64,000 nucleotides of DNA from an uncultured Acidobacteriota bacterium (lineage in GTDB: Bacteria > Acidobacteriota > UBA6911): assembly GCA_963843575.1 (NCBI GenBank), contig CAWJKZ010000024.1, forward strand, positions 181,313 through 245,312, read 5' to 3'. Of the stretch, positions 15,654-34,439 are shown piece by piece. The notes under the pieces are model-generated. The model saw only the letters and a list, made by a program, of their open reading frames with translations. It did no database searches and had not been told where the DNA came from. Each line of letters opens with the position of its first letter. Position 1 is the stretch's first letter. A program made the translations under genes and the position numbers.

Positions 15654-15715
15654 CATTCTGCGCTGCAAAAAACCGCTCTCCGTGTTTGGATCTTCGTATT
15701 ACACTCGCGGGCATC

Positions 15716-17611: not shown

Positions 17612-20600
17612 CTATTTCAGCACGAAGCTGACGGTGACCTTCCACGAGCCGTCCCCGGAAAAGACGTGTTCGCCGCTTCCGCGCGCCTCGTCCGAGGTGT
17701 AGGTCCCGGTGACCTTGAATTCCCCGAGCTGAGGTTCTTCGGGCTGCAGCCGCCAGAAATAGAACGTGAAATTCCCCTTTCCGTCGTGGGTGCCGGTCAA
17801 GTCAACGAGCTCGGTCACTTTGACCTCGCAGGTGAGCCACGCGGGGGGTGGGATGCAGTTCGCCTGCGGCATCGGCAGGAGCGGCGACGACGTCCGTGCG
17901 GTCACGGTGCCGTTGTCGTGCAGCGTCAGGGTGATGGGCAAGACTCCCGCTGCATGACCCTGTCGGGGTACACCCGTAGCTCGACGCGCGACGTGTACGT
18001 CCGATCCACCTGCATGTTCCCCGAGAACTCGAGCTCGCCGGCCTTGACCAGGATCGTCGCGGTGGCCTGTGCCGTCACCGAGTTGGCCGAGGCGGTGAAC
18101 CGGATCGTCTTGAGCCCGGACTGCGGGGGCGTGACTTCGGTGCCGAAGGTGTATGCGCCCTCTTGGGCGTTGCCGTACAACTCGAGCGCCGCCGGGCCCC
18201 CGATCGCGCTCAGATCGGCGACCACGGAAGTGGCCCCGAGAGAGTTGCACGAGATCCGCACGCTATTTCGCCTGTTGATGTACAGATCGCCGGCCGCGGC
18301 GGCATCGGTGATCACCAGGTTCACCCGCACGGTGGCGTAAGCCGTGACCGAGTCGCCGGTGCTGCTCGACCCGTAGAATTTCACCTGCCTGTCCCCCGGG
18401 GTCGCCGGCCGGACGCTGATCGCCGAAGCGGGCGCCCAGATGTCGTCCTGTGTCGCGGGGTCCTTTCCCGTGCGGACGAACTCTATGACGGCAGGCCCGC
18501 CGATGGACGTCGCGTCGGCGCGGACGATGTTGATGCCGCGGGTCGTGCACCGGAGCGTGACCTGCCCGTTCCTGCCGGTTTCGAGCGCCGCCGCGGGCGT
18601 GGCGCTGGCGCCGGTGATGGCGAGCGTCGCGGTTCCCACCTGCACCGATTCGTAGTGCGAATACGACAGCACCGAATGGAAGGTCGTGAACATCGCGTCC
18701 TCGATGATCCAATTCAGCCCCGTGAGGATGTCGAGGGCCGTGTTGACGGCTTCCCCCGTTCCGGCGGTGCCGGCCGCTGCCGCGCACCCCACGATACTGT
18801 GGATGGTGCTCTTGAGCGCCGCGTCGTACAGCTGGTCTGCCGCTCCCTGGTCCCCGGTGAGCCACTCCACGTACTTGTGCCTGCAGGAACCGCGGCAATC
18901 CCGGACTGGACGGCGATGTCCGCACATTCGGTGAGCGATCCCAATCCCGCGATGGCTCGTACGCCTTCCATCGTGAAGTAGAAGAAATCCAGGACCGTCA
19001 CGGTCGCCAGGACCTGCGCGTCCGCGAGGCTGACCCCGCGCAGCTCGGCCGGCAGTCCCCGGCTCTTGTAGAAGGGTATCGCGCGTGAAAACGAGCCGTA
19101 GGTCTTCACGACACCGGACGGATTGGCCCGCACCACCGCGCCGGTCTCGTTGCCGTAAAGCTTGGTGGCCCCCCCTCCCATGTATTCCAGGAACTTGTCG
19201 AGAAAATCGAACAGCTCGGTGGGAATCGTGCTGGCCCGCAACGGGAGGTAGCGGGCGACTTCGCCTGTGAAGTCTCCCTTGGCCGCAGCCCATCGCCGGG
19301 TGGTATTCACGCCGTCGGATCAGCAGGGCGGTTTCCTGTCCTTCGTAGGTCAGGTCGACTCCTGTTTTCATGGAGATCCTGTCGGCTCCGCCGGGGAACA
19401 CTCCTTCCCGGAGAATTTCTCCTGCGGCACTGGGGGCGGAGGCACCGCCGCTCAGCCCCGTCAGGAAATAGCCGACCGCCCTCCGTGAGTTCTGATCCGA
19501 AAGCGCCGCGTTCCCCAGCGCGGGGTGATACAGGTAGGCCTTGCCGTTCTTGATGATCGCGACGAGGGATTCAGGCGCCAGGGCGGCGGTGTTTTGATAG
19601 GACTGTCCCTGGGAGATGATCGTGGCCCCGGGGGCGATCACGACGCCGTTGGAGTACCCGGCGCTGCCGTCGGGGACGTCGACGCCTCGAGCCCGGATGC
19701 CCGCGGCGAAAGCGTCCAGGGTCGTGAGATCGGCGGCGAGGTTGAGCTGGAAAGCCACGATGGGCTGGTCGGAGGAATAGTGCACGCTGGTGTACTCGGG
19801 CGTCTCGGGAGGGAAAAACTCAAAGGTGAATCCCAGCTGCTTCGCAAAAGGTGCTACCTGCGTCGTCCGTGAAATGACGGTTCTACCCTGGTCGTCGAAT
19901 GCGGTCAGGGTCACGTTCGCCTTCGTGCCGGAAACGTTCACGAAGGCGATGCCGGTGTAGGAGAACTTCTCCACGCTGGGGAAAATCCCTTCCTTGGAGC
20001 TGATGTTCACCCCGGTGTAGCCTGCCATCATGTCGCCGTTCTGAGCGGCGAACAGCTCGAAGCCGGTGACCGGCACGCTCCCTTCGACCTCGAGCCAGGC
20101 GGCTTCCTGGGGCAGGCCCAGGGTGCTGAGCAGCCCGATATAGCGTTGGCGCGGCTTCAGCGTCCGGGTCACTTCCGGGCAGGGAGGTCCCGTCGTAGCG
20201 GTGCGGTGTGATGCGCAGCCGGCAATCGACCGCGGCGGGATTGAAGACCACGATGCCGGTCCACCAGAAGTCGTCCTGCGCAAGGTGTGGGAAGAAGAGG
20301 CGGTTCGCGGTTTCGTCTTCCAGCAGCAGCCCGTCGAGAAGGGCGGGGCCGGTCTGGTTCGTGCTGCCAAACAGTTCGGTGCCGACGATCCCGGCGCCGT
20401 TCTTCACGATGGCCGACTCGAGAGCCGGCTGGGGTTGACCCCCGAACCACTCCTGCACCTGCGCGTAGAATCGCCCGTGCGCGGGCAGGTCCACCGATTT
20501 CGTCGCCCCGTTGTTGAATTCGATCGTCAGCTGCTTGGGATAGGGCGTTGTGTTGACGAGGCTGATGCCCGTCCACCAGTCGGCGAGCGAGGCGATGTGG

Positions 20601-22377: not shown

Positions 22378-23241
22378 ATGCACCGGTTGACGGATCCATT
22401 CTGGGCATTCTGGGGCAGGATCCTGCTCAAGCCCGTGGCGTTGGTCGTGCTGAGCGCCTCGATGCTTTTCGAGGGCTATCACCTCCTCGCCCCGTCCGGG
22501 GACAGCCTCGGCGGCATCCGCCGCGATCTCGCCGAACAGGTCTGCGGCAAGGCCGTCGACGAGCTGCCGAAGATGAACGGCGTCCCGTCCCTCGCGGTTC
22601 TCAACCTCGCCGGCGACGACCAGGGGCTCGTCACCGAAATCCTGCGCGCGCGGCTCGAAGCTTCCGGCGAGTTCCGCCTGATGGAGCCCGGCTTTTTCAG
22701 GAAGCTCCTGCGCGAATTCGGCAAGGAGGAAGCGCCCGTCTCGCGTCTCGCCGACGCGGTCGACATGGCCCGCAAGCTCGGGGTCGACCTGGTCCTCTTC
22801 GGCGAACTCCCGGAATTCAAGGCCTCGGCCGACCGTGCCGCGATCCGGCTCGAGCTGCGGATGGCCGAGCGCGCGACAGGCCAGGCTTTGTTCGCGCGCA
22901 GCTACTCGGAGAGCGTGGGCAGCGGCCCGGGTCGTTTCAGCTGGCGCGCGCGCATGGCGGGGAGCGCCAAGGGGCGCAGGATATTCATCTGGGTCGCGTT
23001 CACCCTGCTGCTCCCACTCCTGACCGTCCCCTTGATCCGCCGCATCATCTCGGTCGAATCGAATCTCGTCAACCTCGTCCTGCTCGTGGCCTACACGGCC
23101 GTCGACCTGGCGCTCGCGTTCTTCCTGACGGGCTTCTGGATTCCCGGGATCTGGACCGCGGTCGTGCTGCTGCTCGCGCTCGCGGCGAGCGCTCTCTACA
23201 ACTACGTGATTGCTTCGTTTATCGAAGAGATGAGTCACTGA
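22378..23241 (+). CDS. Hypothetical membrane protein, first gene of the ESCRT-like cluster
   Basis: Intact 287-aa ORF. N-terminal TM segment and a soluble middle region. The C-terminal third is strongly hydrophobic (IFIWVAFTLLLPLLTVPLI...IPGIWTAVVLLLALAASALY). Confidence 0.5.
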   Translation: MHRLTDPFWAFWGRILLKPVALVVLSASMLFEGYHLLAPSGDSLGGIRRDLAEQVCGKAVDELPKMNGVPSLAVLNLAGDDQGLVTEILRARLEASGEFRLMEPGFFRKLLREFGKEEAPVSRLADAVDMARKLGVDLVLFGELPEFKASADRAAIRLELRMAERATGQALFARSYSESVGSGPGRFSWRARMAGSAKGRRIFIWVAFTLLLPLLTVPLIRRIISVESNLVNLVLLVAYTAVDLALAFFLTGFWIPGIWTAVVLLLALAASALYNYVIASFIEEMSH

Positions 23242-23251
23242 GGTAACCGAT

Positions 23252-23848
23252 ATGGCTCTGTTCAAATCCAAAGAAGAGCGGCGCATCGAAAGGAACATCC
23301 AGATCCGCAAGGCCGTGACCCAGATCCGCCGCCAGATCGCCTCCAACGGCAAACACGAGAGCGATTACATCGCCAAGGCGAAGAGAGCCCGGAAAATGGG
23401 CTGGGACAACCAGTACGAGTTCCTCAAGAAGGCGATCAAGAAGACCGCCACGATCAAGGTCCGGCTCGAGCGGCAGCTGCTGGCGCTGGAATCCGCCGTG
23501 CAGATCAAGGAGCAGGCCGAAGGGCACCACGAGTTCGCGAGCGCGATGAACGCGCTGTCGAAGTCGATCGCCGAGGTGTTCGGCGCCACCGACATGGCCA
23601 AGACCCAGGTCAATTTCGAGAAGGCGATGTCGCAGGCCGAGAGCCTGGAAGAGCGGATGGACACGTTCCTCGAGATGACGTCCGAGTCGATGTTCGACTA
23701 CGAGGGGAGTTCCGAGCGCGAGCTCGTCAGCGACGGCGACATCGACAAGATGCTCGAGGAGGAAGTGCAGCACGAGGAACGCGAAGGGATAGACGAAGAA
23801 ATCGACAAGGACATTTCGGCCATCCAGAAGGAAATCGAGAAAAAATAA
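23252..23848 (+). CDS. ESCRT-III (Snf7/CHMP)-like protein 1
   Basis: Intact 198 aa and all alpha-helical. Basic N-terminal helices (KAKRARKMGWDNQYEFLKKAIKKTATIKVRLERQLLALESAVQ) are followed by an acidic C-terminal tail ending DEEIDKDISAIQKEIEKK, which is MIM1-like. Length and charge polarity match Snf7-family proteins. Followed by MIT-AAA gene. Confidence 0.65.
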   Translation: MALFKSKEERRIERNIQIRKAVTQIRRQIASNGKHESDYIAKAKRARKMGWDNQYEFLKKAIKKTATIKVRLERQLLALESAVQIKEQAEGHHEFASAMNALSKSIAEVFGATDMAKTQVNFEKAMSQAESLEERMDTFLEMTSESMFDYEGSSERELVSDGDIDKMLEEEVQHEEREGIDEEIDKDISAIQKEIEKK

Positions 23849-23850
23849 TG

Positions 23851-23887
23851 TGGAGTGCGCGCCTCGGCGCCTCGACGCCGCACTCCA
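23851..23887. repeat. Short REP-like hairpin (TGGAGTGCGCGCC...GACGCCGCACTCCA) between ESCRT-III-1 and Vps4-like-1
   Basis: Shares the arm motif GGAGTGCG / CGCACTCC with the other copies and sits in the 43-nt intergenic gap. Confidence 0.6.
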
Positions 23888-23891
23888 GAAG

Positions 23892-24998
23892 ATGAATACG
23901 ATGCAGTTCTTCCTTGATCAGTACGAGAAGAACAAGGACCAGGGGCTCGACTATCTCAAGGTCGGGGACTACGAGCAGGCAGGTTACCACCTGCTCCTCG
24001 CGGCGAAGTACCTGCTGACCGCGGCGCAGCGGTCGGAGCCGGGGCTCAAGAAAGTGAGACACGCGAAGGCGTTGAAGCTGCGCGAGCTCGCGCTCTCGGC
24101 GAAGGGTCGGACTCCCCCCAGGAAGGCTGCGGGGGCCAGGGACCAGGACGGCGATCTGACGCCCGAGAGCAAGTGGATTGTCTCCGAGAAGCCGAACGTC
24201 CGGTTCGACCAGGTCGCCGGCCTCGCGGACGTCAAGGAAGCGATCAACCTGCGCGTCATCCTGCCGTTTCGCAATCCCGACGCCGCGAAGCGCTTCAGGA
24301 AGAAGGCGGGGGGCGGCATCCTCCTGTACGGACCGCCGGGCACCGGCAAGACGATGATCGGCAAAGCGGTCGCGACCGAGCTCGACGCGCAGTTCCTCAA
24401 CGTCAAGAGCTCGAACATCATGTCGCCGTGGGTCGGGGTGGCCGAGCAGAACCTCGCGCGGCTGTTCGAGGTGGCGCGCCGGTATCCCATCTCGGTGATT
24501 TTCCTGGATGAGACCGAGGCCCTGGTCGGGAAGCGCGGCAGCCAGTCGACCGTGATGAACCGCGTAGTCCCGGAGTTCCTCTCGCAGGTCGACGGACTCG
24601 ACCCGAAGGTGAACTGCATCCTGCTGATGGGGGCCACGAACCGGCCGTGGGACATGGACGAGGCGGCCCTGCGCACCGGGCGCTTCGGCGAGATGATCTA
24701 CGTGGGTCTCCCCGATGCCGCGGCCCGCGAACAGATACTCCATTTCCACCTGGACGGCATCCCGATGGCGTCCGACATCGACCTCCCTGCCCTGGCGGCG
24801 AGGCTGGACGGCTTCAGCGGAGCGGACATCGCGGGTGTCTGCATCAAAGCGACCGATTTCCCCTTTCAGCGGCAGATCCGCTCGGGGGCCGACACGATTC
24901 TGACCAAGGAGGACCTGGACCGGGCCGCTGCGGAAGTCGTCCCGTCGGTGACCCAGGCCATGCTGGAGCGCTATCGCAAGTTCGCGGAGGCGAGGTAA
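23892..24998 (+). CDS. Vps4-like AAA+ ATPase 1: N-terminal MIT domain plus a meiotic-clade AAA domain plus a Vps4_C-like helix
   Basis: Intact. MIT-like three-helix N-terminus (MQFFLDQYEKNKDQGLDYLKVGDYEQAGYHLLLAAKYLLTAAQ...KVRHAKALKLRELA). SEKPNVRFDQVAGLADVKEAINLRVILPF...GGGILLYGPPGTGKTMIGKAVATE closely parallels eukaryotic Vps4 (PNVKWSDVAGL...ILP...[22 protein letters not shown]). Pore loop SPWVGVAEQ, Walker B VIFLDE, and C-terminal SVTQAMLERYRKFAE. Confidence 0.8.
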   Translation: MNTMQFFLDQYEKNKDQGLDYLKVGDYEQAGYHLLLAAKYLLTAAQRSEPGLKKVRHAKALKLRELALSAKGRTPPRKAAGARDQDGDLTPESKWIVSEKPNVRFDQVAGLADVKEAINLRVILPFRNPDAAKRFRKKAGGGILLYGPPGTGKTMIGKAVATELDAQFLNVKSSNIMSPWVGVAEQNLARLFEVARRYPISVIFLDETEALVGKRGSQSTVMNRVVPEFLSQVDGLDPKVNCILLMGATNRPWDMDEAALRTGRFGEMIYVGLPDAAAREQILHFHLDGIPMASDIDLPALAARLDGFSGADIAGVCIKATDFPFQRQIRSGADTILTKEDLDRAAAEVVPSVTQAMLERYRKFAEAR

Positions 24999-25022
24999 CG
25001 CCGCCCGCTTTGGAGTCGACCG

Positions 25023-25718
25023 ATGAGTGACCCCGTAAGCCACAGCCTCCCTGCCGCGCCGCGCTGGGGCGAACTCTTCCTCGAGCGGTTCGACCTGAAC
25101 GTGCGCGCCTGCGGCGCCGTCGTGCACCCGGCCGACGGGACCGTGCTCAAGGTCAATCCGAAGATGCTGGGGCAAACTTTCCGCCGGGACTTCGGCGAAG
25201 TGGTGCTCTTCTCGCTCTCCGCCGGCCTCATCGCCAGATCCCGCCTGCACCTGGCCGCCATCCGGCTGAACGACGGCGTCCCCGAGCCGGAACTCCTGCG
25301 CCGCGTGGGCGGTCCCGACGGACTCGATTTCGTGGGCGATCATTTTTACTCCGTCGGGTTGTTCGCGCCCGGCGGCTGGCCCGAAGAGTGGAAGGCACAG
25401 GCGGCGCTGCGCGGCAACGCGCTGTTCTACCTGGTCGAGAAGGGGGACGGAACCGGCTGGGGCGTGTTCGGCCCGGAAAACCCTCTCCTGCGGCTGTTCG
25501 ACCCCGAGACGACCATCGAGAAGGCGGCCCGGGCGGCGCAGGCCCTCGCGGGGCACCCACGGCTCGTGATGCCGGGGGACCAGGTCGAAGCCGGCGCGTT
25601 CGCCGCGGAACTGCGCCTGGACGCGGAGGCCCTGGAGAAAGCGCTGGCAGCTTCGCAGGGGCGCTTCCACAAGATGGAGTACAAGGGCAAGACCTACATA
25701 CAGCGGTCAATCCGGTAG
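25023..25718 (+). CDS. Hypothetical protein (231 aa) embedded in the ESCRT-like cluster
   Basis: Intact ORF with an RBS-like sequence upstream. No recognisable domain. Confidence 0.4.
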   Translation: MSDPVSHSLPAAPRWGELFLERFDLNVRACGAVVHPADGTVLKVNPKMLGQTFRRDFGEVVLFSLSAGLIARSRLHLAAIRLNDGVPEPELLRRVGGPDGLDFVGDHFYSVGLFAPGGWPEEWKAQAALRGNALFYLVEKGDGTGWGVFGPENPLLRLFDPETTIEKAARAAQALAGHPRLVMPGDQVEAGAFAAELRLDAEALEKALAASQGRFHKMEYKGKTYIQRSIR

Positions 25719-25726
25719 GAGGAATC

Positions 25727-26338
25727 ATGTCCGTGATGGAGAAACTCAGAGCGCTGTTCCAGAGCGAGAGTCTGCCGGACGAGACGCGCCAGCTTTACAG
25801 CAGGGCGTCCACGCCGCACGAACTCATCAAGGAGCTGGAGGGGTTGCGGGGCCGCAACGAGGTCGACCTGCGCGAGAACGAGCAGGAGCTGATCGGGCTC
25901 GAGAAGGCGGTCCTGCTGGAGGAGGACGCCGTGCGCCGGGGAGGGATGACCCCGACCGAAGAGACGATCGTGCTGCGCCGGATCGAACGGCTGCAAAAGC
26001 AGCGGGAGAACCTCGACCGGCAGGTCTCGATCTACAACGAAAACGTCAACCTGCACCTCAACCTCATCGCCAGAATCCAGGAGATGGAGGCGATGCGCTC
26101 CCGCGGGGTCGCCGAGGACCAGATCGACCGGCTCGTCGAGGATGTCGAGGGGCACGTCGAAGAGTACAAACGGGTGAGCATTGCGGCCGAAGGGGGCTCG
26201 ACCATGGGTTCGGCCATCGACCACTCGGCCGAGCGCCGCCGCCTGGACGAGATCAAGAACCGCATCCTGGCCAGGGACAGGGAACGTCCACGCGCCGCGG
26301 ACGAGGAACCCGTCGAACCCCCCAAAGACCTGGAGTGA
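25727..26338 (+). CDS. ESCRT-III (Snf7/CHMP)-like protein 2
   Basis: RBS TAGGAGG precedes the ATG at 25727. 203 aa, helical. Core ENEQELIGLEKAVLLEEDAVRRGGMTPTEETIVLRRIERLQKQRENLDRQVSIYNENVNLHLNLIARIQEME. The C-terminal RLDEIKNRILARD resembles the Vps2-type MIM1 (D/E-L-x-x-R-L-x-x-L-R-R-D). Confidence 0.65.
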   Translation: MSVMEKLRALFQSESLPDETRQLYSRASTPHELIKELEGLRGRNEVDLRENEQELIGLEKAVLLEEDAVRRGGMTPTEETIVLRRIERLQKQRENLDRQVSIYNENVNLHLNLIARIQEMEAMRSRGVAEDQIDRLVEDVEGHVEEYKRVSIAAEGGSTMGSAIDHSAERRRLDEIKNRILARDRERPRAADEEPVEPPKDLE

Positions 26339-26374
26339 TCCCAGCTATCACGATTCATCAAAGGAGATCGAATC

Positions 26375-26995
26375 ATGAACCTGATCGAAAAGCTGTTCAG
26401 CAAATCGCCCACCGCGGCGGACCTCCGGGTCCAGCTCAAGGAGATCGAAAGGGACCAGAAGAAGAAGCGGCGCGACCTCGACATCGTCGAGCGCAACAAG
26501 CAGCAGAAGGTCAAGGAAGCCGTCGCCGCAAAGAAGAATGGCAAACAGGAGGTGCTCCGGGACATCTTCCGGGAGATGCGGCAGATGGAGATCGAGAACG
26601 GCTATGCAAACGCCGACCTGCGCCGCCTGTCGCTGGCCAAGACCGCGCTGACGTCCTTCCTGCGCAAGATGGAGATGCTCGAGCGGAAGAAGGACCGGAA
26701 GAGCCTGCAGAACCTGATCGTGCGGTTCAAAGACAGCTCGATCCAGAAGGCGATCGACACGGCGGAAGTCGACGACGACACCTTCAACGACATGCTGGAA
26801 GAGATCCTCGGCGAAGAGGAGTTGTCGGTCACGCAGGGGAGGGTGAAAGAAGATACCGGGTTTGCCGACTTCGACCGGGCGATCGGCGAGATGGCGAAGG
26901 CCGAGGAGGCCGGTTCGGACGAAGAGGATCTCAACAAGTTCCAGGAAGAGATCGACAAGGCCGTCCGGGCGGAAAAAGTGCGGGACGAGGCGTAG
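26375..26995 (+). CDS. ESCRT-III (Snf7/CHMP2-like) protein 3
   Basis: 206 aa. N-terminal half LRVQLKEIERDQKKKRRDLDIVERNKQQKVKEAVAAKKNGKQEVLRDIFREMRQME parallels the CHMP2 helix-1/2 pattern (...AAKKGQKD...). Acidic C-terminus DDDTFNDMLEEILGEEEL...EEDLNKFQEEIDKAVRAEK. Confidence 0.7.
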   Translation: MNLIEKLFSKSPTAADLRVQLKEIERDQKKKRRDLDIVERNKQQKVKEAVAAKKNGKQEVLRDIFREMRQMEIENGYANADLRRLSLAKTALTSFLRKMEMLERKKDRKSLQNLIVRFKDSSIQKAIDTAEVDDDTFNDMLEEILGEEELSVTQGRVKEDTGFADFDRAIGEMAKAEEAGSDEEDLNKFQEEIDKAVRAEKVRDEA

Positions 26996-27019: not shown

Positions 27020-28240
27020 ATGGACGTCGACCTGAGCGGGCCGCTGAAAGTGTCGCTGGACAAGACACTGGCCGAGGCGCGGGAGCTCGAAGGGCAGAAC
27101 AAGGGCCAGGAGGCGGCCGTCGCCTACCTGAAGGCGTCGAAGCTGATGAAGAGCTACGCCGACTACGCGCTCACCCGCGACGACCAGGTGCGGAGGCGCC
27201 AGAAGGCGCGGCAGTACCTGGAGTGGGCCGAGGCGCTCAAGGCCGGCAAGCGGCGGGTGGCCGCAGCCGCCGCGCCCGTGCGGGCTGCACCGGTTGCCGG
27301 CGGCGTCAAGGAGGCCGCCGCCGGGGACGAGGAACAGTACTCGCGCGACATCGCGTCGCTGATCCACCGCAGCAAGGTGACGTGGGACAAGATCGGCGGG
27401 CTCGAGGAGACCAAGCGTGAGATCAAGTTCACGTACGGGCTCGCGCTGGCCCGGAAACCGGAAGGGATGAAGCTCGCGGGGTGGCGCCGCATGCTCTTCT
27501 ACGGGCCGCCCGGGACCGGCAAGACGTTGCTGGCGGCGGCTACCAGCAACGGGCTGGGCGCGACCTTCTTCAACGTCAAGGCGAGCAACCTCCTGTCGAA
27601 GTACTTCGGCGAGTCCTCGAAGCTGATCACGGAGCTGTTCGACGCCGCCCGGAGCGAGGCCGACGAAGGCTTCGCCGTCATTTTCATCGACGAGGTCGAG
27701 TCGCTCTGCCTGCCGCGCGGCGACGGCTCGGAGAGCGGCGCCGAGAGGCGCGTCCTGTCGACGATCCTGTCGGAGCTCGACGGGCTGGCGGACAAGGGTG
27801 AGGACCGGTTCGTCCTGACCATCGCGGCGACCAACGCGCCGTGGGACCTCGACGACGCGGTGCTCAGCCGCTTTCAGAAGAGAATTTACATCCCGCTGCC
27901 CGACGCCGAAGCGCGCAAGTCGATACTCGAGATCCTGCTGCTCAAGGCGGGCCACACGCTGGACTACCCGCTCGGGGAGGTCATCGAGCACTCGGAGTGG
28001 TTCAGCGGGCGCGACCTGGAACGGCTGGCGAACCAGGCGGTCAACGTCATGGTCGAGGAACTCAACAGCCAGATTCCGCGCTGCGTCGACGCCGGGCGGG
28101 AGTCGATCGAGGGCTACCAGCTCAAGGTGCGCCCGCTCGGCAAGAGCGATTTCGACGAGGCGTTCCGGCGCATACGGGTGGACGTGGACCGGCTGAAAAA
28201 GCTGGAGACGCGCTTTCGCGAGTTCGCAGAGAGCAATTGA
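27020..28240 (+). CDS. Vps4-like AAA+ ATPase 2 (MIT-like N-terminus plus meiotic-clade AAA)
   Basis: Intact 406 aa. MIT-like helices (AVAYLKASKLMKSYADYALTRDDQVRRRQKARQYLEWAEALK). Walker A FYGPPGTGKTLLAAA, pore loop LSKYFGESSKL, Walker B VIFIDEVESL, and a C-terminal helix LKKLETRFREFAE of Vps4_C type. Confidence 0.75.
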   Translation: MDVDLSGPLKVSLDKTLAEARELEGQNKGQEAAVAYLKASKLMKSYADYALTRDDQVRRRQKARQYLEWAEALKAGKRRVAAAAAPVRAAPVAGGVKEAAAGDEEQYSRDIASLIHRSKVTWDKIGGLEETKREIKFTYGLALARKPEGMKLAGWRRMLFYGPPGTGKTLLAAATSNGLGATFFNVKASNLLSKYFGESSKLITELFDAARSEADEGFAVIFIDEVESLCLPRGDGSESGAERRVLSTILSELDGLADKGEDRFVLTIAATNAPWDLDDAVLSRFQKRIYIPLPDAEARKSILEILLLKAGHTLDYPLGEVIEHSEWFSGRDLERLANQAVNVMVEELNSQIPRCVDAGRESIEGYQLKVRPLGKSDFDEAFRRIRVDVDRLKKLETRFREFAESN

Positions 28241-28258: not shown

Positions 28259-29230
28259 ATGGCGGTTTGCGGTCAGTGTAAACAGGACGGCGGGGAAAAG
28301 AAGTTCTGCACCAACTGCGGCGCGCCCATGGTTGAGCCGGCCGCGCCCGCTCAGAAAGCGCAGGCGTCCGGGGTGCGGCTTGGGGACATCGGGTTCGTGA
28401 AGGGGAACATCACCGACTCGAGCACGGTCACGACGACCACCACCAACGTCGGGCAGATCAACATCGGGATGCCTGCCGGCACGTCCCCCGCGGCCCCGTG
28501 TTGCCCCATCTGCGGCGAGTACCCGGAGCTGCGCGAGAGCTTCCGCTGCATGGCGTGCGGGCGCGACTACATCTGCAAGAGGCACCGCCACCCCGAGCAA
28601 AGGATCTGCACCGCGTGCGTCCGCCGGCGCGAGATGGTGTGGGTGCCGCCGGGCGGATCGTTCGACGGGTTCTGGATGGACCGTGCGAAGGTGACCTGCG
28701 AGGCCTACCGGCGATTCCTGGTGGCCAATCCCGGCTGGCAGAAAGGGAGCGTCGATGGGAAGCGCCACGACGGCTACTATCTCAGGGATTGGAACGGGAA
28801 CGACTACCCGGCCGGGAAGGGCGGCCAGCCGGTGGTCTACGTCAGCTGGTACGCGGCCCGCGCCTGCGCGGAGTGGTCCGGGAAGCGGCTCCCGACCGAG
28901 GCCGAGTGGGAGTACGGCTGCCGCGCGGGAACGAACACGGCCTACTGGTGGGGGGACGAGTTCGCCCTGGGGCGGGCCGCCGAAGCCAACCCTTGGGGAC
29001 TGCGCGGCATGTCGGGGTGCCTGTGGGAGTGGACGTCATCGCCCTTCAGCGACGACCCCGCGGATGCGGGGCCGCGCAGCTGCCGCGGCGGCTCGAAATG
29101 GGGGGATGCGGCCGAAGCCCGCTCCTCCGCGCGCAGCGGCCGCGCCCCGAGAGGCTGCAGCGTGATGGTCGGTTTCCGGTGCGTCGAGAGCGGAGACTGT
29201 CCAACGACGAAGCCACTCGACCAGATGTGA
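28259..29230 (+). CDS. Zinc-ribbon protein with a C-terminal FGE-sulfatase (SUMF1/EgtB/PvdO-type) domain
   Basis: N-terminal CGQC...CTNCGAP ribbon plus a second Cys cluster. The C-terminus carries FGE-sulfatase hallmarks (VYVSWYAARACAEWSGKRLPTEAEWEYGCRAG...RGGSKW). Confidence 0.65.
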   Translation: MAVCGQCKQDGGEKKFCTNCGAPMVEPAAPAQKAQASGVRLGDIGFVKGNITDSSTVTTTTTNVGQINIGMPAGTSPAAPCCPICGEYPELRESFRCMACGRDYICKRHRHPEQRICTACVRRREMVWVPPGGSFDGFWMDRAKVTCEAYRRFLVANPGWQKGSVDGKRHDGYYLRDWNGNDYPAGKGGQPVVYVSWYAARACAEWSGKRLPTEAEWEYGCRAGTNTAYWWGDEFALGRAAEANPWGLRGMSGCLWEWTSSPFSDDPADAGPRSCRGGSKWGDAAEARSSARSGRAPRGCSVMVGFRCVESGDCPTTKPLDQM

Positions 29231-29360: not shown

Positions 29361-30869
29361 ATGATGATGGATGCCGCGGACCAATTGAAGGAGCTGCTTC
29401 TCAAACTCAAGCAGAACCTCCCGCTCACGATCGCGACCACGATCGTAATGAGCATCCTCGTCATATCATGGAAAAAACTCCTTCATTTTGCGAAACGCAG
29501 ACTCGGTTTCGAAGAGCCTCCCAAGGAAGTCCTGAAACCCTCGCTCCCTGAAGGCGATTTTGCCCGTCTGTCGACGCTCGACAAGTTCCGTTCCGGCTTC
29601 TCGGTGCCCTTCGGCTGGCGCGGCGCCGTCGTCGACGCCGGCGTGGTTCAGCGTGAGCTCGGCCCCGGCCGCTACCGCCGGCGCGCCGTCGCGAAGATAA
29701 TCGCCTCCCTGCGGCTCGGCGAAAACGCGCACGTCGTCTTCTGGCGGGACCAGGAGTTCCCCGTAGTGCTCTATCTCCGTGATCTCTTCGCCTCCGACCA
29801 CCAGCCCATGCAGCTCGAGATCCGGAGCACGGCCCGGGTGCGGCCCGATCGTCTGACGCACTCCTCCCCGGAGGAGATCAACCGCGACCCGGCCTGCTGG
29901 GCGGAGGATCTCTCGGCCGGCATCGCGGTTGCCGCCCGCCAGTGGGTGGCCGGTATGGCGGCAGAGGCGCCGTATCACAACGCGGCCAAGCTCTCCGAGT
30001 GGTGCGACGTGGCTGCCGGCTGGATCCGGTCCGCCCTCGAGCGCTCGACTTTCGAACTGGTGCGAGTTACCGGGTTCCGGTTGTTCAGCCCGGTGCTCGA
30101 CAAGGTCTTCGCCGAATACGGCGAGGCGGCGCTGGAGCACGAGGCCGCGCGCCGCGAGGTGGAGCGCAACAAGGTGCGCGGGGCGCTGCGCCAGGCCGTG
30201 CTCGCCGGCCAACTGGAGGAGGTCCGGGACCAGAGCGAGCACGAACAGGCGGTGCGCGCCATCGAGCAGGAAAAAGAGCTCCGCGAGAAAGCCCTGCGGC
30301 AGGAACTGGCGCAGGCCGAACTCACGGAACTGGAAGACAAACTGAGACTCTGGAAGAAGAAGCAGGACCTGTTGCTCCAGACGCTCGACCTGTCGGGGCA
30401 GGACTCCGCCCGGCAGTTTGATGCCCCCGACTCGCCGTTCTCCGCCCACGAGCGCGAACAGATCCGGGCAGTGCTGCAGAGTCAAAGGGCGATGTCGACG
30501 CAACCCGAGGAAGTGCTCCCGCTGCTCGCCCGCAGCACAGAGATCCAGTGGGCCGCGTTCGACCCGCTTGCCCGGATCCGCGGCCCGCACACGCTGCGCG
30601 TCGGCGAGGGGTGGCGGTTCTTCGACGGGGTGAGCCTGTGGAGAATCGTGCTGACCCGCATCGACACGCGTCGTAACGGGTTCTTGTGGCAGCGGGAGAC
30701 GCCGTCGCGCGCGTATTTCGAAGTGCGCGGCACGCCCGACGGCCGGCGCTACGAGCAGGTTGTCGAACTGAACAAACACTTCCGGCTGAGCGCCGGCCCC
30801 CACGAGATGAGTGTCGACTTCATCGGCGGCAGCGCGAGCCGGATTTCACTCCAGGTAGGCCAGGCCTGA
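29361..30869 (+). CDS. Membrane-anchored SPFH/band-7-like protein with a long coiled coil
   Basis: Intact 502 aa. TM helix LPLTIATTIVMSILVIS is followed by an SPFH-like segment (AVVDAGVVQRELGPGRYRR...HVVFWRDQEFPVVLYLRDLFASDHQPMQLEIRSTARV) and a coiled coil of about 120 aa. Confidence 0.45.
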   Translation: MMMDAADQLKELLLKLKQNLPLTIATTIVMSILVISWKKLLHFAKRRLGFEEPPKEVLKPSLPEGDFARLSTLDKFRSGFSVPFGWRGAVVDAGVVQRELGPGRYRRRAVAKIIASLRLGENAHVVFWRDQEFPVVLYLRDLFASDHQPMQLEIRSTARVRPDRLTHSSPEEINRDPACWAEDLSAGIAVAARQWVAGMAAEAPYHNAAKLSEWCDVAAGWIRSALERSTFELVRVTGFRLFSPVLDKVFAEYGEAALEHEAARREVERNKVRGALRQAVLAGQLEEVRDQSEHEQAVRAIEQEKELREKALRQELAQAELTELEDKLRLWKKKQDLLLQTLDLSGQDSARQFDAPDSPFSAHEREQIRAVLQSQRAMSTQPEEVLPLLARSTEIQWAAFDPLARIRGPHTLRVGEGWRFFDGVSLWRIVLTRIDTRRNGFLWQRETPSRAYFEVRGTPDGRRYEQVVELNKHFRLSAGPHEMSVDFIGGSASRISLQVGQA

Positions 30870-30970
30870 CGGATTTTTGAAAATTCGAGATTCTTCGAGT
30901 CTTGGAGCCTTCGAGGTGGGATTGGAATCCCCCTCGACGACCATTTCACCAGACGCATCGGAGGCACGCC

Positions 30971-33074: not shown

Positions 33075-34439
33075 ATGGCTAGTTGGGTGTGTGGGAAGTG
33101 CAATACCGAGAATCGGGCCGAGGGGAACTTCTGCACGTCGTGCGGCGCGTCGCGTCGCGCTCAGGCGCCCCCCGCCCCGGCCGGCGCAGCGGACCAGGCG
33201 TCGAGCATCCTGGACAAGATCCGCGAGTCGCGGGCAAGCTCGTTCAAACACAGCCGGGCCTCGCTCGACCGTTTCTCGTCGGAGGTGGGGAAGCTCCCGG
33301 AGCTGGAGCTGGGGTTGCCCGACATCGGGCAGCTGCTCAAAACCGGGACGCCCGGCGCGGCGGGTGCTTCGGCAGGTGCGTCGCGCGCTCCTGCGATCGC
33401 CCGGGTCACGACCCGCGACCTGCAGGTGAAACACAATGCCCACCCGCGCCTGAACTACGCGATGGCGCACTGCGGGCTGCCGCTGATCCCGACGCTGGAG
33501 ATCCGCAACAACGCGCGCGAGCCGGCGCAGGACGTATTGGTCAAGGCGTGGGTCGCGACCGACTACGGCGAACCGTGGCAGAAGACCATCCCATCGATTG
33601 CGCCTGGGGAGGCGTACGTCGAGAAGGACATCTTCGTGCCGCTGCAGAAATCCCGGCTGCAGCAGGTCCGGGAGGCGGAACGGGCCAACCTCAGGATCGA
33701 CGTTTTCACCGAGGGCGAGGTGCAGGTGTCGGAGACCTTCCCGCTCGATGTGCTCGCGTACAACGAGTGGTACTACAGCGCGTACTTCCCTCAGACGGTC
33801 GCGAGCTTCATTCAGCCCAATTCGCCGGCCATCGAAAGGATCGTCTCGCTGGTGCGCGACCGCCTGAAGCGCGAGTACCGCGACACCGCGCTGGACGGCT
33901 ATCAGTCCGACGACCCGAAAAAGATCCTGGAACGCCTCGAGGCGTTCTTCCTCGTCCTGCAGAAGGACCTGCAGATCACCTACATCAACCCGCCGCCCAG
34001 CTTCGAAGGGGCCGAAACCCTCCCCGACGGCACCATGACGGTGTCGCAGAAGGTTTTTTTCCCCGAGCAGATCCTGGAGCACCGCCGCGGCACGTGCCTC
34101 GACCTGGCCCTCATGTGCGCCGCGTGCGTCGAACGTATGGGGCTGCACCCATTGTGGTTCATGATCCGCGGGCACGCGTTCTTCGGGACGTGGCTGTACC
34201 AGAAGGCGCTCAAAGAGCCGGTCGTCACCGAACACGCGTTCGTGCAGAAACTGCTGACCGAGGGACTGTGGCTGCCGCTGAACTCGACGACCTTCGCGCT
34301 CTCCCGCCCGATGCAATTCACGGACTGCGTCGCGGAGGCAACTTACTGTCTCAAGGATCCGGCACCGTTCATCTGCGCCGTCGACGTGCAGTCGGCACGG
34401 ATGGGCGGCATCAAACCTATCCCCCCGGTGGTGGGATAG
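33075..34439 (+). CDS. Zinc-ribbon protein with a C-terminal transglutaminase-like cysteine protease domain
   Basis: N-terminal CGKC...CTSCG ribbon. C-terminal transglutaminase-like core segment HRRGTCLDLALMCAACVERMGLHPLWFMIRGHAFFGTW, whose Cys/His are the putative catalytic residues. Intact. Confidence 0.55.
   Translation: MASWVCGKCNTENRAEGNFCTSCGASRRAQAPPAPAGAADQASSILDKIRESRASSFKHSRASLDRFSSEVGKLPELELGLPDIGQLLKTGTPGAAGASAGASRAPAIARVTTRDLQVKHNAHPRLNYAMAHCGLPLIPTLEIRNNAREPAQDVLVKAWVATDYGEPWQKTIPSIAPGEAYVEKDIFVPLQKSRLQQVREAERANLRIDVFTEGEVQVSETFPLDVLAYNEWYYSAYFPQTVASFIQPNSPAIERIVSLVRDRLKREYRDTALDGYQSDDPKKILERLEAFFLVLQKDLQITYINPPPSFEGAETLPDGTMTVSQKVFFPEQILEHRRGTCLDLALMCAACVERMGLHPLWFMIRGHAFFGTWLYQKALKEPVVTEHAFVQKLLTEGLWLPLNSTTFALSRPMQFTDCVAEATYCLKDPAPFICAVDVQSARMGGIKPIPPVVG

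What the first reader, a model, noticed from the sequence alone, without database searches (positions are those of the whole stretch)
23700..26995. C-terminal tails of the three Snf7-like proteins carry MIM-like amphipathic motifs
Protein 1 ends ...DEEIDKDISAIQKEIEKK, with hydrophobics at i, i+3 and i+7 followed by KK. Protein 2 ends with RLDEIKNRILARDRE, which is very close to the Vps2 MIM1 sequence DLEERLKNLRRD. Protein 3 has DDDTFNDMLEEILGEEEL and EEDLNKFQEEIDKAVRAEK. In eukaryotes such MIM1/MIM2 motifs are the handles by which Vps4 MIT domains grab ESCRT-III polymers. Finding them on the same proteins that sit next to MIT-AAA genes supports a real functional coupling rather than chance coiled-coil similarity.
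Basis: partly seen in the sequence, partly recalled or inferred. Interest (0 to 1): 0.6.

Follow-up and report, generated by a model that had tools for sequence, protein, structure and literature searches.

The report
Bacterial ESCRT-III tails facing Vps4-like ATPases

Summary
The quoted peptides are all in the sequence, but protein 2 does not end with its motif: 17 more residues follow.

- **Motif match:** None of the three proteins, and none of 80 P1 orthologues, matches the canonical MIM1 consensus. The loose hydrophobic pattern occurs 6-8 times per protein, so single-sequence resemblance is near chance.
- **What the proteins are:** P1 belongs to the Snf7 family at the family level. P2 and P3 are ESCRT-III-like only by predicted architecture and weak profile links.
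- **The ATPases:** Both have a MIT-like three-helix N-terminal domain. CdvC is their best or near-best NCBIfam model.
- **Conservation:** The six-gene core recurs in Acidobacteriota and Planctomycetota. The P1 terminal helix and the P2 helix are conserved across phyla.
- **Charge pairing:** Tail charge and MIT helix charge invert together in two different protein pairs at two different clade boundaries. This favours direct contact but amounts to only two contrasts.
- **Untested:** No docking could be run.

**Verdict:** a real bacterial ESCRT-III/Vps4-like module with non-canonical, probably MIT-binding tails. The eukaryotic MIM1/MIM2 label is not earned.

The parts
23252..23848 (+). P1: Snf7-family (ESCRT-III) protein, 198 aa. 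N-terminus MALFKSKEERRIER resembles the ESCRT-III MGLFGK-type start.
   Evidence: The family profile hits Snf7 5fd9 at E 7e-4, CHMP3 at 0.035 and CHMP2A at 0.11, with no PspA or Vipp1 hit. 11 of 22 family members hit Pfam Snf7 PF03357, best 1.8e-8; the window copy itself is below detection. 197 homologues were found, and relatives occur in at least 115 species genomes.
23792..23845 (+). P1 C-terminal amphipathic helix DEEIDKDISAIQKEIEKK. The conserved core ISAIQKEI (nt 23813-23836) has hydrophobic spacing 0,3,7. It is the best candidate for a MIT-binding handle.
   Evidence: Three columns are at least 90% hydrophobic in 80 orthologues, and the motif mostly ends 7-11 residues from the C-terminus. 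There is no canonical MIM1 match in 0/80 orthologues. Tail charge is opposite in sign to AAA1 MIT helices 2 and 3 in both major clades.
23901..24998 (+). AAA1: single-cassette AAA+ ATPase, 365 aa from the ATG at 23901. The mechanical ORF starts at a GTG at 23850. The MIT-like three-helix N-terminal domain is at nt 23901-24107.
   Evidence: Pfam AAA 3e-34, AAA_lid_3 1e-9, weak Vps4_C 0.011. NCBIfam CdvC 204 bits against CDC48 208 bits. Orthologue alignments start at M18. The N-terminal profile hits the chitin synthase 1 (2mpk) chain at E 0.012 over the whole domain. hhalign to the AAA2 N-terminal domain gives 93.5%, E 2e-7.
25023..25718 (+). unk231: 231-aa protein of unknown family, the most constant partner of the module. 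In 31-32 Phycisphaerae/Tepidisphaerales loci it is fused to a P2-like ESCRT-III-like domain.
   Evidence: hmmsearch finds it upstream of P1 in most of the 80 loci. The fusion is visible in alignment A9. The fused C-terminal part matches P2 by hhalign at 92%, E 6e-7. No Pfam, NCBIfam or PDB sequence match.
25727..26338 (+). P2: 203-aa ESCRT-III-like protein with a predicted helical hairpin architecture. N-terminus MSVMEKLRALF.
26228..26284 (+). P2 helix AERRRLDEIKNRILARDRE (aa 168-186), hydrophobic spacing 0,3,7,8. It is either a MIT handle or an alpha5-like helix packing on the core.
   Evidence: Conserved as E-x3-L-x2-[IL]-x3-I-[LVT]-[GA] in Acidobacteriota and Planctomycetota. pLDDT is about 93 in the monomer model. 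Its charge is opposite in sign to the C-terminal half of AAA2 MIT helix 3 in both clades.
26285..26335 (+). P2 disordered Pro/Glu-rich end RPRAADEEPVEPPKDLE, with a recurring terminal hydrophobic-Leu-Glu. An alternative, MIM2-like candidate handle.
   Evidence: pLDDT is below 50. Orthologues end ...KDLE...TLEN...YVLE...IALE after a Pro-rich linker. The fused homologues also carry a long Pro-rich linker and a conserved terminal R-x-E-Φ-G.
26375..26995 (+). P3: 206-aa ESCRT-III-like protein. N-terminus MNLIEKLF.
   Evidence: AF2 gives pLDDT 78, pTM 0.63, helices 3-7, 14-54, 58-104, 108-119, 123-129, 134-145, 162-178 and 183-198. About half of the top 50 Foldseek PDB hits are ESCRT-III superfamily (CHMP3 prob 0.85-0.97, CHMP1B, CdvB2, Vipp1, PspA, Snf7), but none has a significant E-value. 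hhalign to the P1 family gives 27%, E 6.5e-4 at the hairpin tip. The family has only 64 representatives among 1.8 billion proteins.
26771..26824 (+). P3 acidic helix DDDTFNDMLEEILGEEEL (aa 133-150). It lies at the position of ESCRT-III alpha5, not in the tail.
   Evidence: Helix 134-145 follows alpha4 directly in the model. It is conserved across the family.
26849..26914 (+). P3 helix EDTGFADFDRAIGEMAKAEEAG (aa 159-180).
   Evidence: Consensus D-P-x-K-x2-F-L-x2-[IL]-D-x-I-x2-AE-x-G holds in Acidobacteriota and Planctomycetota. It carries the only loose 0-4-7 + K/R match in the P3 tail, with shuffle P 0.008.
26921..26977 (+). P3 last helix EEDLNKFQEEIDKAVRAEK (aa 183-201), at the alpha6 position.
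   Evidence: Model helix 183-198 has pLDDT 63-66. It is weakly conserved in group-B Planctomycetota. By inspection, an E-x-K-x-V-R core recurs in Phycisphaerae P3-like proteins (...DEAEKRVRER...).
27020..28240 (+). AAA2: single-cassette AAA+ ATPase, 406 aa. The MIT-like N-terminal domain is at nt 27044-27250. Pore loop SKYFGES.
   Evidence: Pfam AAA 9e-36. CdvC is the best NCBIfam model at 179 bits. The N-terminal profile gives whole-domain hits to VPS4B/SKD1 MIT 1wr0 (E 0.0035), VPS4A 1yxr/2jq9 (0.008) and MITD1 4a5x (0.009). Helix 3 QYLEWAEALK aligns with VPS4B EYLDRAEKLK. Pfam MIT gives 0.082 for the window copy, and 6 of 16 orthologues hit it, best 0.005.

Best explanation
The region encodes a bacterial ESCRT-III/Vps4-like membrane-remodelling module. 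It has three filament-type paralogues: P1 of the Snf7 family, and P2 and P3, which are divergent. It also has an adaptor-like protein (unk231) and two CdvC/Vps4-like AAA+ ATPases that each carry an N-terminal MIT-like three-helix bundle.

Each paralogue ends in conserved short helices after a flexible linker.

The most likely mechanism (inferred, not shown) is as follows.
- The proteins polymerise on the cytoplasmic membrane through an N-terminal M-x-L-F motif and a helical hairpin.
- Their exposed C-terminal helices are captured by the MIT domains: P1 by the adjacent AAA1, and P2 (perhaps also P3) by AAA2.
- The ATPase hexamer then extracts subunits.

The handles work like MIMs but are a lineage-specific type. 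They have hydrophobic spacing 0,3,7, variable charge matched to the cognate MIT, and no canonical MIM1 or MIM2 consensus.
For: Shown:
- The gene set and order are conserved in Acidobacteriota and Planctomycetota: P1-AAA1 in about 45 of 80 loci, and unk231-P2-P3-AAA2 in Acidobacteriota and several Planctomycetota.
- The P1 family is Snf7.
- The AAA2 N-terminal domain matches the VPS4A, VPS4B and MITD1 MIT domains over all three helices, and the AAA1 N-terminal domain is homologous to it.
- CdvC is the best or near-best NCBIfam model.
- P2 and P3 are predicted as hairpin-plus-helices proteins, with ESCRT-III structures prominent among non-significant fold hits.
- Weak profile links run P1-P3 (E 6.5e-4), P3-fusion domain (E 5e-5) and fusion domain-P2 (E 6e-7).
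- The tails are conserved.
- Charge is opposite between partners in both states of two pairs:
  - P1 tail against AAA1 MIT helices 2+3: acidic tail with MIT about +5.8, versus neutral LRAELAELK tail with MIT about -4.6.
  - P2 helix against the C-terminal half of AAA2 helix 3: +1 to +4 with -2 to 0, versus -2 to -5 with +2 to +4.

Inferred: MIT-tail binding, the pairing of partners, polymerisation and ATP-driven disassembly.
Against: - No interface was modelled or measured.
- There is no canonical MIM1 match in any protein or orthologue.
- The loose pattern is common in these helical proteins.
- Each charge covariation is a single between-clade contrast with no within-clade signal. For P1, within-clade rho is -0.04 and -0.16. 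For P2, n = 9 and P = 0.10.
- The P2 helix has pLDDT about 93 in a monomer model, which fits a core-packing helix as well as a handle.
- P3's tail stays acidic whatever the charge of AAA2.
- P2 and P3 lack significant sequence or fold matches to ESCRT-III.
- MIT matches are below Pfam's curated threshold.
- About 30 loci, mainly Tepidisphaerales, keep the P1 tail with no MIT-AAA gene within 10 kb.
Confidence: 0.55

Rival explanations
1. The conserved C-terminal helices are ordinary ESCRT-III alpha5/alpha6 elements. They fold back on the hairpin for autoinhibition or bridge neighbouring subunits in the polymer. They are conserved for assembly, not for ATPase recruitment. The ATPases would then recognise substrates in some other way, for example by threading a disordered end or through the extreme C-terminal motifs.
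For: - The P2 helix 166-186 has pLDDT about 93 in a monomer model, separated from the core by a low-confidence linker.
- P3's DDDTFNDMLEEIL lies at the alpha5 position.
- The P1 'VSDxEIDRMI' helix and the terminal helix are both strongly conserved, as assembly elements would be.
- P2 and its fused relatives carry a separate conserved terminal motif after a Pro-rich linker.
- Roughly 30 loci keep the P1 tail without a nearby MIT-AAA gene.
Against: - Intramolecular packing does not predict that tail charge should invert together with the charge of the MIT helices of the neighbouring ATPase, in two pairs.
- In eukaryotic ESCRT-III, by established knowledge, the same C-terminal helices serve both autoinhibition and MIT binding. 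The two roles are therefore not exclusive.
Confidence: 0.25
2. The resemblance to MIMs is chance heptad-like periodicity in acidic coiled-coil tails. P2 and P3 are generic coiled-coil proteins, not ESCRT-III. The N-terminal domains of the ATPases are TPR-like helical bundles with another role.
For: - There is no canonical motif match, and the loose pattern occurs 6-8 times per protein.
- P2 and P3 have no significant sequence or fold hit to ESCRT-III.
- The N-terminal profiles also hit TPR proteins with similar E-values.
Against: - TPR hits cover one helix pair only, whereas MIT hits span the whole domain.
- The tail columns are conserved across phyla.
- The P1 family is Snf7.
- P2 and P3 always travel with P1 and the MIT-AAA genes, and the P2-like domain is fused to unk231.
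- All three share the M-x-L-F N-terminus and a hairpin-tip [KR]-x-G motif.
Confidence: 0.1
3. The cluster is an anti-phage or conflict system. The AAA+ ATPases and helical proteins would act as sensor and effector parts that damage the membrane, not as housekeeping membrane remodelling. The tails would then be regulatory rather than Vps4-type handles.
For: - The neighbour p454 (33075-34439) matches the N-terminal 313 positions of NCBIfam 'anti-phage protein ProA' at E 1e-74.
- The AAA domains hit the IetA/IteA anti-phage ATPase models.
- Zinc-ribbon fusion proteins and a Ser/Thr kinase lie alongside.
Against: - The PADLOC hits are generic AAA matches only, and no other cluster protein matches a defence model.
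- The core genes are conserved in order across two phyla, without the patchy, variable context typical of defence islands.
- CdvC outscores IteA by 75-95 bits.
Confidence: 0.1

Closest known systems
Archaeal Cdv system (CdvB ESCRT-III paralogues + CdvC/Vps4, with CdvA adaptor)
   Same: - Several ESCRT-III-like paralogues lie next to a single-cassette MIT-AAA ATPase.
- CdvC is the best or near-best NCBIfam model for both ATPases.
- CdvB2 filaments are the top fold hits for P2.
- An adaptor-like partner, unk231, can be fused to an ESCRT-III domain. This recalls CdvB's fusion to a winged helix.
   Different: - The host is bacterial (Acidobacteriota, Planctomycetota).
- There are two ATPases.
- No CdvA or PRC-barrel protein was detected.
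- CdvC scores are far below the equivalog cut-off (179-204 bits against 650).
- CdvB uses a Pro-rich MIM2 (PMC7240154), whereas the conserved elements here are helices.
Eukaryotic / Asgard ESCRT-III (Vps2/24/46 with MIM1; Vps20/32/60 with MIM2) and Vps4
   Same: - The P1 family matches Snf7, CHMP3 and CHMP2A.
- There is a C-terminal amphipathic helix at the alpha6 position.
- The AAA2 MIT-like helix 3, QYLEWAEALK, resembles VPS4B EYLDRAEKLK. By inspection this stretch corresponds to the part of VPS4A helix 3 that holds Leu64, whose L64D mutation blocks MIM1 binding (PMC11218997).
- Phycisphaerae P1 tails (LRAELAELKG) come closest to L-x2-R-L-x2-L-K/R.
   Different: - There is no canonical MIM1 or MIM2.
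- The hydrophobic register is 0,3,7 instead of 0,4,7.
- The Arg of MIM1 is replaced by acidic or small residues in the window lineage, with a basic MIT instead of an acidic one.
- No ESCRT-I, ESCRT-II or ubiquitin components were seen.
Bacterial PspA/Vipp1 (ESCRT-III superfamily) systems
   Same: Bacterial membrane-associated helical-hairpin proteins. SPFH/Band-7 neighbours are known for PspA loci (PMC10936438), and an SPFH protein with zinc ribbons lies in this cluster.
   Different: - The P1 profile hits Snf7 and CHMP proteins, not PspA or Vipp1.
- There is no PspA_IM30 Pfam match.
- The partner is a MIT-AAA ATPase rather than PspF, PspBC or LiaI.
- A 2025 review states that a Vps4-like ATPase appears absent in bacteria (PMC7619361).
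Bacterial Snf7/PspA + AAA+ neighbourhoods noted by comparative genomics (mSystems 2024, PMC11237479)
   Same: That paper reports transfers of Vps4-like ATPases to bacteria. It also reports associations of some bacterial Snf7-clade proteins with AAA+ ATPases and suggests ATP-dependent membrane remodelling.
   Different: - The cases described there have Snf7 displaced by a TPR-6TM protein, or Snf7 with a TM segment in transporter operons.
- The three-paralogue / two-ATPase / unk231 cluster and its tail motifs are not described in any paper I could find.

Membership tests
ESCRT-III / Snf7 (Pfam PF03357) | Significant sequence match to the family profile: P1 | tested here: met
   The window copy alone gives no hit. 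However, 11 of 22 close-to-distant family members hit PF03357 (best 1.8e-8), and the family profile hits Snf7 5fd9 at E 7e-4, CHMP3 at 0.035 and CHMP2A at 0.11.
ESCRT-III / Snf7 (Pfam PF03357) | Significant sequence match to the family profile: P2 and P3 | tested here: not met
   There is no Pfam or NCBIfam hit and no ESCRT-III hit for the family profiles against PDB. Only 1 of 27 P3-family members hits Snf7, at E 0.02. hhalign to P1 gives 2% for P2 and 5-27% for P3.
ESCRT-III / Snf7 (Pfam PF03357) | Fold: long alpha1-alpha2/3 hairpin followed by alpha4, alpha5 and a C-terminal helix | tested here: inconclusive
ESCRT-III / Snf7 (Pfam PF03357) | Polymerisation on and remodelling of membranes | not testable with these tools
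   This needs purified protein with liposomes and EM.
Vps4 / CdvC (MIT-AAA ATPase) | N-terminal MIT three-helix bundle | tested here: inconclusive
   The AAA2 N-terminal profile gives whole-domain hits to VPS4B, VPS4A and MITD1 MIT at E 0.0035-0.009. The AAA1 N-terminal domain is homologous to it (hhalign 93.5%). Pfam MIT stays below the curated cut-off: 13.4 bits against 30 for the window AAA2, with 6 of 16 AAA2 and 2 of 25 AAA1 orthologues matching at E up to 1. No structure model was made.
Vps4 / CdvC (MIT-AAA ATPase) | Single classic-clade AAA cassette with Walker A and an aromatic pore loop | tested here: met
   Pfam AAA gives 3e-34 and 9e-36. Both have GPPGTGKT, and the pore loops are SPWVG (AAA1) and SKYFGES (AAA2).
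Vps4 / CdvC (MIT-AAA ATPase) | Equivalog-level match to CdvC (NCBIfam NF041006, cut-off 650 bits) | tested here: not met
   Scores are 204 bits (AAA1) and 179 bits (AAA2). CdvC is the best model for AAA2 and second to CDC48 (208 bits) for AAA1.
Vps4 / CdvC (MIT-AAA ATPase) | C-terminal Vps4_C helix | tested here: inconclusive
   AAA1 hits PF09336 at E 0.011 with 16 bits, below the cut-off of 21.3. AAA2 gives no hit, although both proteins end in a helix-like ...F-x-E segment (sequence).
MIM1 (helical MIT-interacting motif, (D/E)xxLxxRLxxL(K/R)) | Match to the consensus | tested here: not met
   With I/V/M/F allowed for Leu, there are 0 matches in P1, P2 and P3 and 0 in the tails of 80 P1 orthologues. 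The consensus itself is taken from my own knowledge of the literature.
MIM1 (helical MIT-interacting motif, (D/E)xxLxxRLxxL(K/R)) | Conserved amphipathic helix at the extreme C-terminus of an ESCRT-III protein | tested here: met
   The P1 tail has three columns at least 90% hydrophobic, mostly 7-11 residues from the end, in 80 orthologues. The P2 and P3 helices are conserved.
MIM1 (helical MIT-interacting motif, (D/E)xxLxxRLxxL(K/R)) | Binding in the MIT helix 2 / helix 3 groove | not testable with these tools
   Only indirect evidence exists: opposite charge of the tail and MIT helices 2/3 in both clade states, for two pairs. Structure-prediction jobs were exhausted, and the tool returns no contacts.
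MIM2 (Pro-rich MIT-interacting motif) | Pro-rich extended motif near the C-terminus matching the phi-LP-VPS-xLP type consensus (PMC11218997) | tested here: inconclusive
   P2 ends in a disordered Pro/Glu-rich stretch, EEPVEPPKDLE. Orthologues have EEPLPRK/EEPLPKK, which resembles part of the consensus. This was judged by inspection only and the region is low-complexity. P1 and P3 have no Pro-rich end.

The most novel reading that the evidence does not exclude
Planctomycetota and Acidobacteriota possess a complete, bacterial ESCRT-like scission machine. It would consist of an adaptor (unk231, sometimes fused to an ESCRT-III domain), three ESCRT-III paralogues and Vps4-like ATPases. Its own class of MIT-interacting helices would co-evolve by charge with their MIT domains. 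MIT-MIM coupling would then be older or more widespread than the archaeal-eukaryotic lineage. In Planctomycetota lineages that lack FtsZ (per the literature, not checked for these genomes), the system could take part in cell division or internal membrane or vesicle formation.
Probability: 0.2. Interest if true: 0.85.

Novelty: new variant of a known kind. Interest (0 to 1): 0.6.

Why it matters
Recent reviews state that ESCRT components other than PspA/Vipp1, and a Vps4-like ATPase in particular, appear absent from bacteria (PMC10936438, PMC7619361).

This is a conserved bacterial cluster with a Snf7-family protein, two further ESCRT-III-like paralogues and two MIT-AAA ATPases. Relatives of P1 are found in at least 115 species genomes. 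Such a cluster would make the origin of ESCRT-III/Vps4 coupling testable outside archaea and eukaryotes.

If the tails are MIT handles with a different register and a charge code, they add a new class of MIT-interacting motif. They would also be a natural example of handle and receptor co-evolving. Many of the host lineages are Planctomycetota, several of which are reported to lack FtsZ, so a role in division or membrane scission is worth testing.

Tried and rejected
**Searches that gave nothing**
- Single-sequence Pfam, NCBIfam and PDB searches of P1, P2 and P3 gave nothing useful.
- hhalign of P1 against P2 and of P2 against P3 showed no significant similarity.
- A PDB profile search for unk231 gave only a weak ZAP N-terminal hit at E 0.02.

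- The afdb50 fold library was unavailable.
- The look-up of encoding contigs had no record for the window's P1 or P2, so the exact source record was not identified.

**Docking test not attempted**
P3 and AAA2 are in the same frame, so I considered predicting a read-through P3-stop-AAA2 'fusion' as a docking test. I dropped this because the tool returns no contacts or PAE, so an interface could not be read.

**Tests that were not informative**
- Presence or absence of a nearby MIT-AAA gene as a test of tail function: tail-bearing P1 genes without an ATPase within 10 kb may have one elsewhere.
- Within-clade charge correlation: none found.

**Defence-system reading**
Only generic AAA hits in PADLOC.

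Full report
**1. What is in the sequence**

The window is about 65% G+C. Between 22.4 and 36 kb it carries a run of + strand genes:

| Gene | Coordinates | Length | Notes |
|---|---|---|---|
| membrane protein | 22378-23241 | 287 aa | |
| P1 | 23252-23848 | 198 aa | |
| AAA1 | 23901-24998 | 365 aa | mechanical ORF starts at a GTG at 23850; orthologues start at the ATG |
| unk231 | 25023-25718 | 231 aa | unassigned |
| P2 | 25727-26338 | 203 aa | identical public gene call |
| P3 | 26375-26995 | 206 aa | |
| AAA2 | 27020-28240 | 406 aa | |
| zinc-ribbon/FGE-sulfatase-domain protein | 28259-29230 | 323 aa | |
| unassigned protein | 29361-30869 | 502 aa | |
| double-zinc-ribbon SPFH/Band-7 protein | 30902-33031 | 709 aa | |
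| p454 | 33075-34439 | 454 aa | |
| Ser/Thr kinase | 34477-36132 | 551 aa | |

There is one error: P2 does not end with RLDEIKNRILARDRE. This motif is aa 172-186, and 17 further residues (RPRAADEEPVEPPKDLE) follow.

**2. Is the motif resemblance more than chance?**

At the level of the single sequences it is not.

- I tested the canonical MIM1 consensus (D/E)xxLxxRLxxL(K/R), which I take from my own knowledge of the 2007 structural papers. I allowed I/V/M/F in place of Leu. It matches none of the three proteins and none of 80 P1 orthologues.
- A loose Φ-x3-Φ-x2-Φ pattern occurs 6-8 times in each of these helical proteins.
- In shuffles of the P1 tail the loose pattern arises in 11% of trials, or 3.6% when a following K/R is required.
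- The 'very close' similarity of P2 to CHMP2A DLEERLKNLRRD rests on E-[IL]-K-N. It needs an indel within a helix. The P2 register is 0,3,7(8), whereas MIM1 is 0,4,7.

**3. What the proteins are**

*P1.* The window copy of P1 gives no Pfam hit, but its family does.

- There are 197 homologues.
- 11 of 22 sampled members hit Pfam Snf7, best 1.8e-8, and none hits PspA_IM30.
- The family profile hits yeast Snf7 (E 7e-4), CHMP3 and CHMP2A among solved structures, and not PspA or Vipp1.
- The nearly invariant N-terminus M-[GAS]-L-F-K-S-K-E-E-R looks like the MGLFGK-type start of ESCRT-III proteins. This comparison is from my own knowledge.

*P2 and P3.* These have no significant sequence link to ESCRT-III.

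- AlphaFold2 models give the ESCRT-III order of helices. P3 has pLDDT 78 and P2 has pLDDT 82.5. Each has a short N-terminal helix, a hairpin with arms of about 40 and 47-50 residues, then shorter helices.
- Foldseek against the PDB returns no significant E-value. Even so, about half of the top 50 hits for P3 are ESCRT-III-superfamily structures: CHMP3 with probability 0.85-0.97, CHMP1B, CdvB2, Vipp1, PspA and Snf7.
- The top four hits for P2 are CdvB2 filaments.
- Weak profile links form a chain. P3 family to P1 family gives E 6.5e-4 at the hairpin tip, and the P3-family HMM weakly hits P1 orthologues. P3 family to the fusion domain described below gives 67%, E 5e-5. The fusion domain to P2 gives 92%, E 6e-7.

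I therefore treat P2 and P3 as probable, not proven, ESCRT-III paralogues.

*The ATPases.*

- Both have one classic AAA cassette (Pfam AAA 3e-34 and 9e-36).
- CdvC is the best NCBIfam model for AAA2 (179 bits). It is within 4 bits of the best model for AAA1 (204 against 208 for CDC48). Both scores are far below the equivalog cut-off.
- A profile of the first 85 residues of AAA2 orthologues gives whole-domain matches to the MIT domains of VPS4B/SKD1 (E 0.0035), VPS4A (0.008) and MITD1 (0.009). TPR proteins match only one helix pair.
- The printed alignment spans all three helices. It puts AAA2 QYLEWAEALK on VPS4B EYLDRAEKLK.
- The AAA1 N-terminal domain is homologous to that of AAA2 (hhalign 93.5%, E 2e-7). 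It hits the chitin synthase 1 chain 2mpk over the whole domain.
- Pfam MIT matches are frequent among orthologues but sub-threshold.

'MIT-like' is therefore justified. Curated membership is not reached.

**4. Conservation in other genomes**

A scan of one genome per species found relatives of P1 in at least 115 genomes, and 80 loci were fetched. These came from Acidobacteriota (including Vicinamibacterales), many Planctomycetota (Phycisphaerae, Tepidisphaerales, Kuenenia) and a Sumerlaeota MAG.

- P1 is followed by AAA1 in about 45 loci.
- The unk231-P2-P3-AAA2 block is present in the Acidobacteriota and in several Planctomycetota, there placed upstream of P1-AAA1.
- A P3-family gene of about 200 aa is found in 54 of 80 loci.
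- unk231 is the most constant neighbour. In 31-32 Phycisphaerae/Tepidisphaerales loci it is fused to a P2-like domain.

- **P1:** Three tail columns are at least 90% hydrophobic at spacing 0,3,7 (ISAIQKEI, LKDIQDEL, LSALRAEL). They mostly end 7-11 residues from the C-terminus.
- **P2:** The helix is conserved as E-x3-L-x2-[IL]-x3-I-[LVT]-[GA]. A Pro-rich linker and a terminal hydrophobic-Leu-Glu follow it.
- **P3:**
  - DDDTFNDMLEEIL sits at the alpha5 position.
  - The last helix is conserved in Acidobacteriota. By my inspection, an E-x-K-x-V-R core also recurs in Phycisphaerae. It is only weakly conserved in other Planctomycetota.

**5. Is there evidence for coupling to the MIT-like domains?**

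I could not model a complex. The indirect evidence is charge pairing.

*P1 and AAA1.*

| Clade | Loci | P1 tail | AAA1 MIT helix 2 | AAA1 MIT helix 3 |
|---|---|---|---|---|
| Acidobacteriota + one planctomycete group | 22 | acidic | +2.1 | +3.7 |
| Phycisphaerae | 23 | near neutral, carries Arg/Lys (LRAELAELKG) | -2.4 | -2.2 |

Across all 45 loci, Spearman rho is between -0.54 and -0.69. There is no correlation within either group. This therefore counts as one evolutionary contrast.

*P2 and AAA2.*

| Clade | P2 helix | C-terminal half of AAA2 helix 3 | Charge of that half |
|---|---|---|---|
| Acidobacteriota | +1 to +4 | QYLE.AEALK | -2 to 0 |
| Planctomycetota | -2 to -5 | KYRE..KRLR | +2 to +4 |

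This rests on 9 loci, with rho -0.59 and P 0.10. It is a second contrast, in a different pair and at a different clade boundary.

P3's tail is acidic throughout and shows no such pairing.

Two concordant inversions are what a helix-in-groove contact would predict. They remain weak statistics.

**6. Best explanation and rivals**

*Best explanation.* The cluster is most likely a bacterial ESCRT-III/Vps4-like membrane-remodelling module. Conserved C-terminal helices act as handles for the MIT-like domains: P1 for AAA1, and P2 (perhaps also P3) for AAA2. These handles are a lineage-specific type and are neither MIM1 nor MIM2. I put the handle function at about 0.55. I put the reading 'ESCRT-III/Vps4-like module' much higher.

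*Main rival (0.25).* The helices may be alpha5/alpha6 elements conserved for autoinhibition or polymer contacts.

- The high confidence (pLDDT about 93) of the P2 helix in a monomer model fits this.
- P2 and its fused relatives also carry a separate conserved end motif after a Pro-rich linker. That motif could be the real handle, in a MIM2-like manner.
- In eukaryotes the same helices do both jobs, so the two readings overlap.

*Pure chance (about 0.1).* This is unlikely given the cross-phylum conservation.

*Defence role (about 0.1).* This is suggested only by a ProA-like domain in a neighbour and by generic AAA hits.

**7. Comparison with the literature**

- Makarova et al. 2024 state that ESCRT homologues are identifiable in archaea 'but not in bacteria' (PMC10936438).
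- A 2025 review says a Vps4-like ATPase 'appears absent in bacteria' (PMC7619361).
- A 2024 comparative-genomics paper does report transfers of Vps4-like ATPases to bacteria and some bacterial Snf7/PspA-AAA+ neighbourhoods. Those have different partners (PMC11237479).
- I found no paper describing this three-paralogue / two-ATPase / unk231 cluster or its tails.
- Asgard work shows that predicted MIM1-like helices can use Ile for Leu and still be read as MIMs (PMC7240154). Departure from the consensus does not exclude function.

I rate the finding a new variant of a known kind.

**8. Limits**

- The source organism was not identified exactly.
- P1 and the MIT-like domains were not modelled.
- Fold matches for P2 and P3 are not significant.
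- The alignments used for the structure models contained only sequences at least 44-59% identical to the query.
- The charge argument rests on two contrasts.

Noticed in passing
window 25023-25718; L036:8026-9315, L042:7808-9304, L062:7772-9247, L072:7221-8705, L031:7680-9161: The unassigned 231-aa protein is the most constant neighbour of the Snf7-like gene across 80 loci. In 31-32 Phycisphaerae/Tepidisphaerales loci it is fused to a P2-like ESCRT-III-like domain (hhalign 92% to P2). Its last 60 or so residues look like a winged helix, which recalls ESCRT-II or CdvB wH adaptors. No database match was found.
   Followed up: partly
window 33075-34439: This 454-aa zinc-ribbon protein matches the N-terminal 313 positions of NCBIfam NF058533 'anti-phage protein ProA' (E 1e-74, far below the full-length cut-off). 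It has no Pfam hit. It is conserved downstream of the cluster in the Acidobacteriota loci.
   Followed up: no
window 30902-33031: This 709-aa protein has double zinc ribbons at both ends, an SPFH/Band-7 domain and a long coiled coil. Makarova et al. [quoted passage not shown] The same association appears here in a bacterium.
   Followed up: no
window 28259-29230 and 29361-30869: A zinc-ribbon protein with an FGE-sulfatase (formylglycine-generating-enzyme-like) domain and a 502-aa protein with no family match lie between AAA2 and the SPFH gene. The 502-aa protein is conserved in the Acidobacteriota loci. The FGE gene is variably present.
   Followed up: no
window 34477-36132 and 15581-16903: A Ser/Thr protein kinase lies directly downstream of the cluster, and an FHA-domain protein lies upstream. 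Together they hint at phospho-regulation.
   Followed up: no
proteins P0307-P0318, P0330: Many P3-family representatives are 280-680 aa. The P3-like part is at the N-terminus and is followed by a long unexamined C-terminal extension.
   Followed up: no
L031:9267-9881, L062:9332-9937, L078:8838-9443 and about 40 further loci: Phycisphaerae carry a P3-family gene of about 200 aa between the unk231 fusion and P1. It has a strongly conserved tail ...ELLKIWNDMDAGLIKD...AFDEAEKRVRER. The basic end contrasts with the acidic MIT-like domain of their single ATPase.
   Followed up: partly
L027, L029, L031, L034-L036, L038, L039, L042, L043, L045, L046, L049, L057, L060, L065, L068: In Tepidisphaerales-type loci, no MIT-AAA gene was found within 10 kb of the unk231 fusion and P1 (where a P3-like gene was detected). 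P1 still keeps its terminal helix (LDELESEIAKELG). Either the ATPase is encoded elsewhere or the tail has another role.
   Followed up: partly
window 23850-23900: The longest ORF for AAA1 starts at a GTG two bases after the P1 stop. All orthologues align from the ATG at 23901 (or 23892). The 5' extension is probably not translated.
   Followed up: yes
window 17926-20370 (-) and 43370-45799 (-): Two large ORFs of 814 and 809 aa have no Pfam match. The first overlaps several long alternative-frame ORFs, which is typical of high-G+C DNA. They were not examined further.
   Followed up: no
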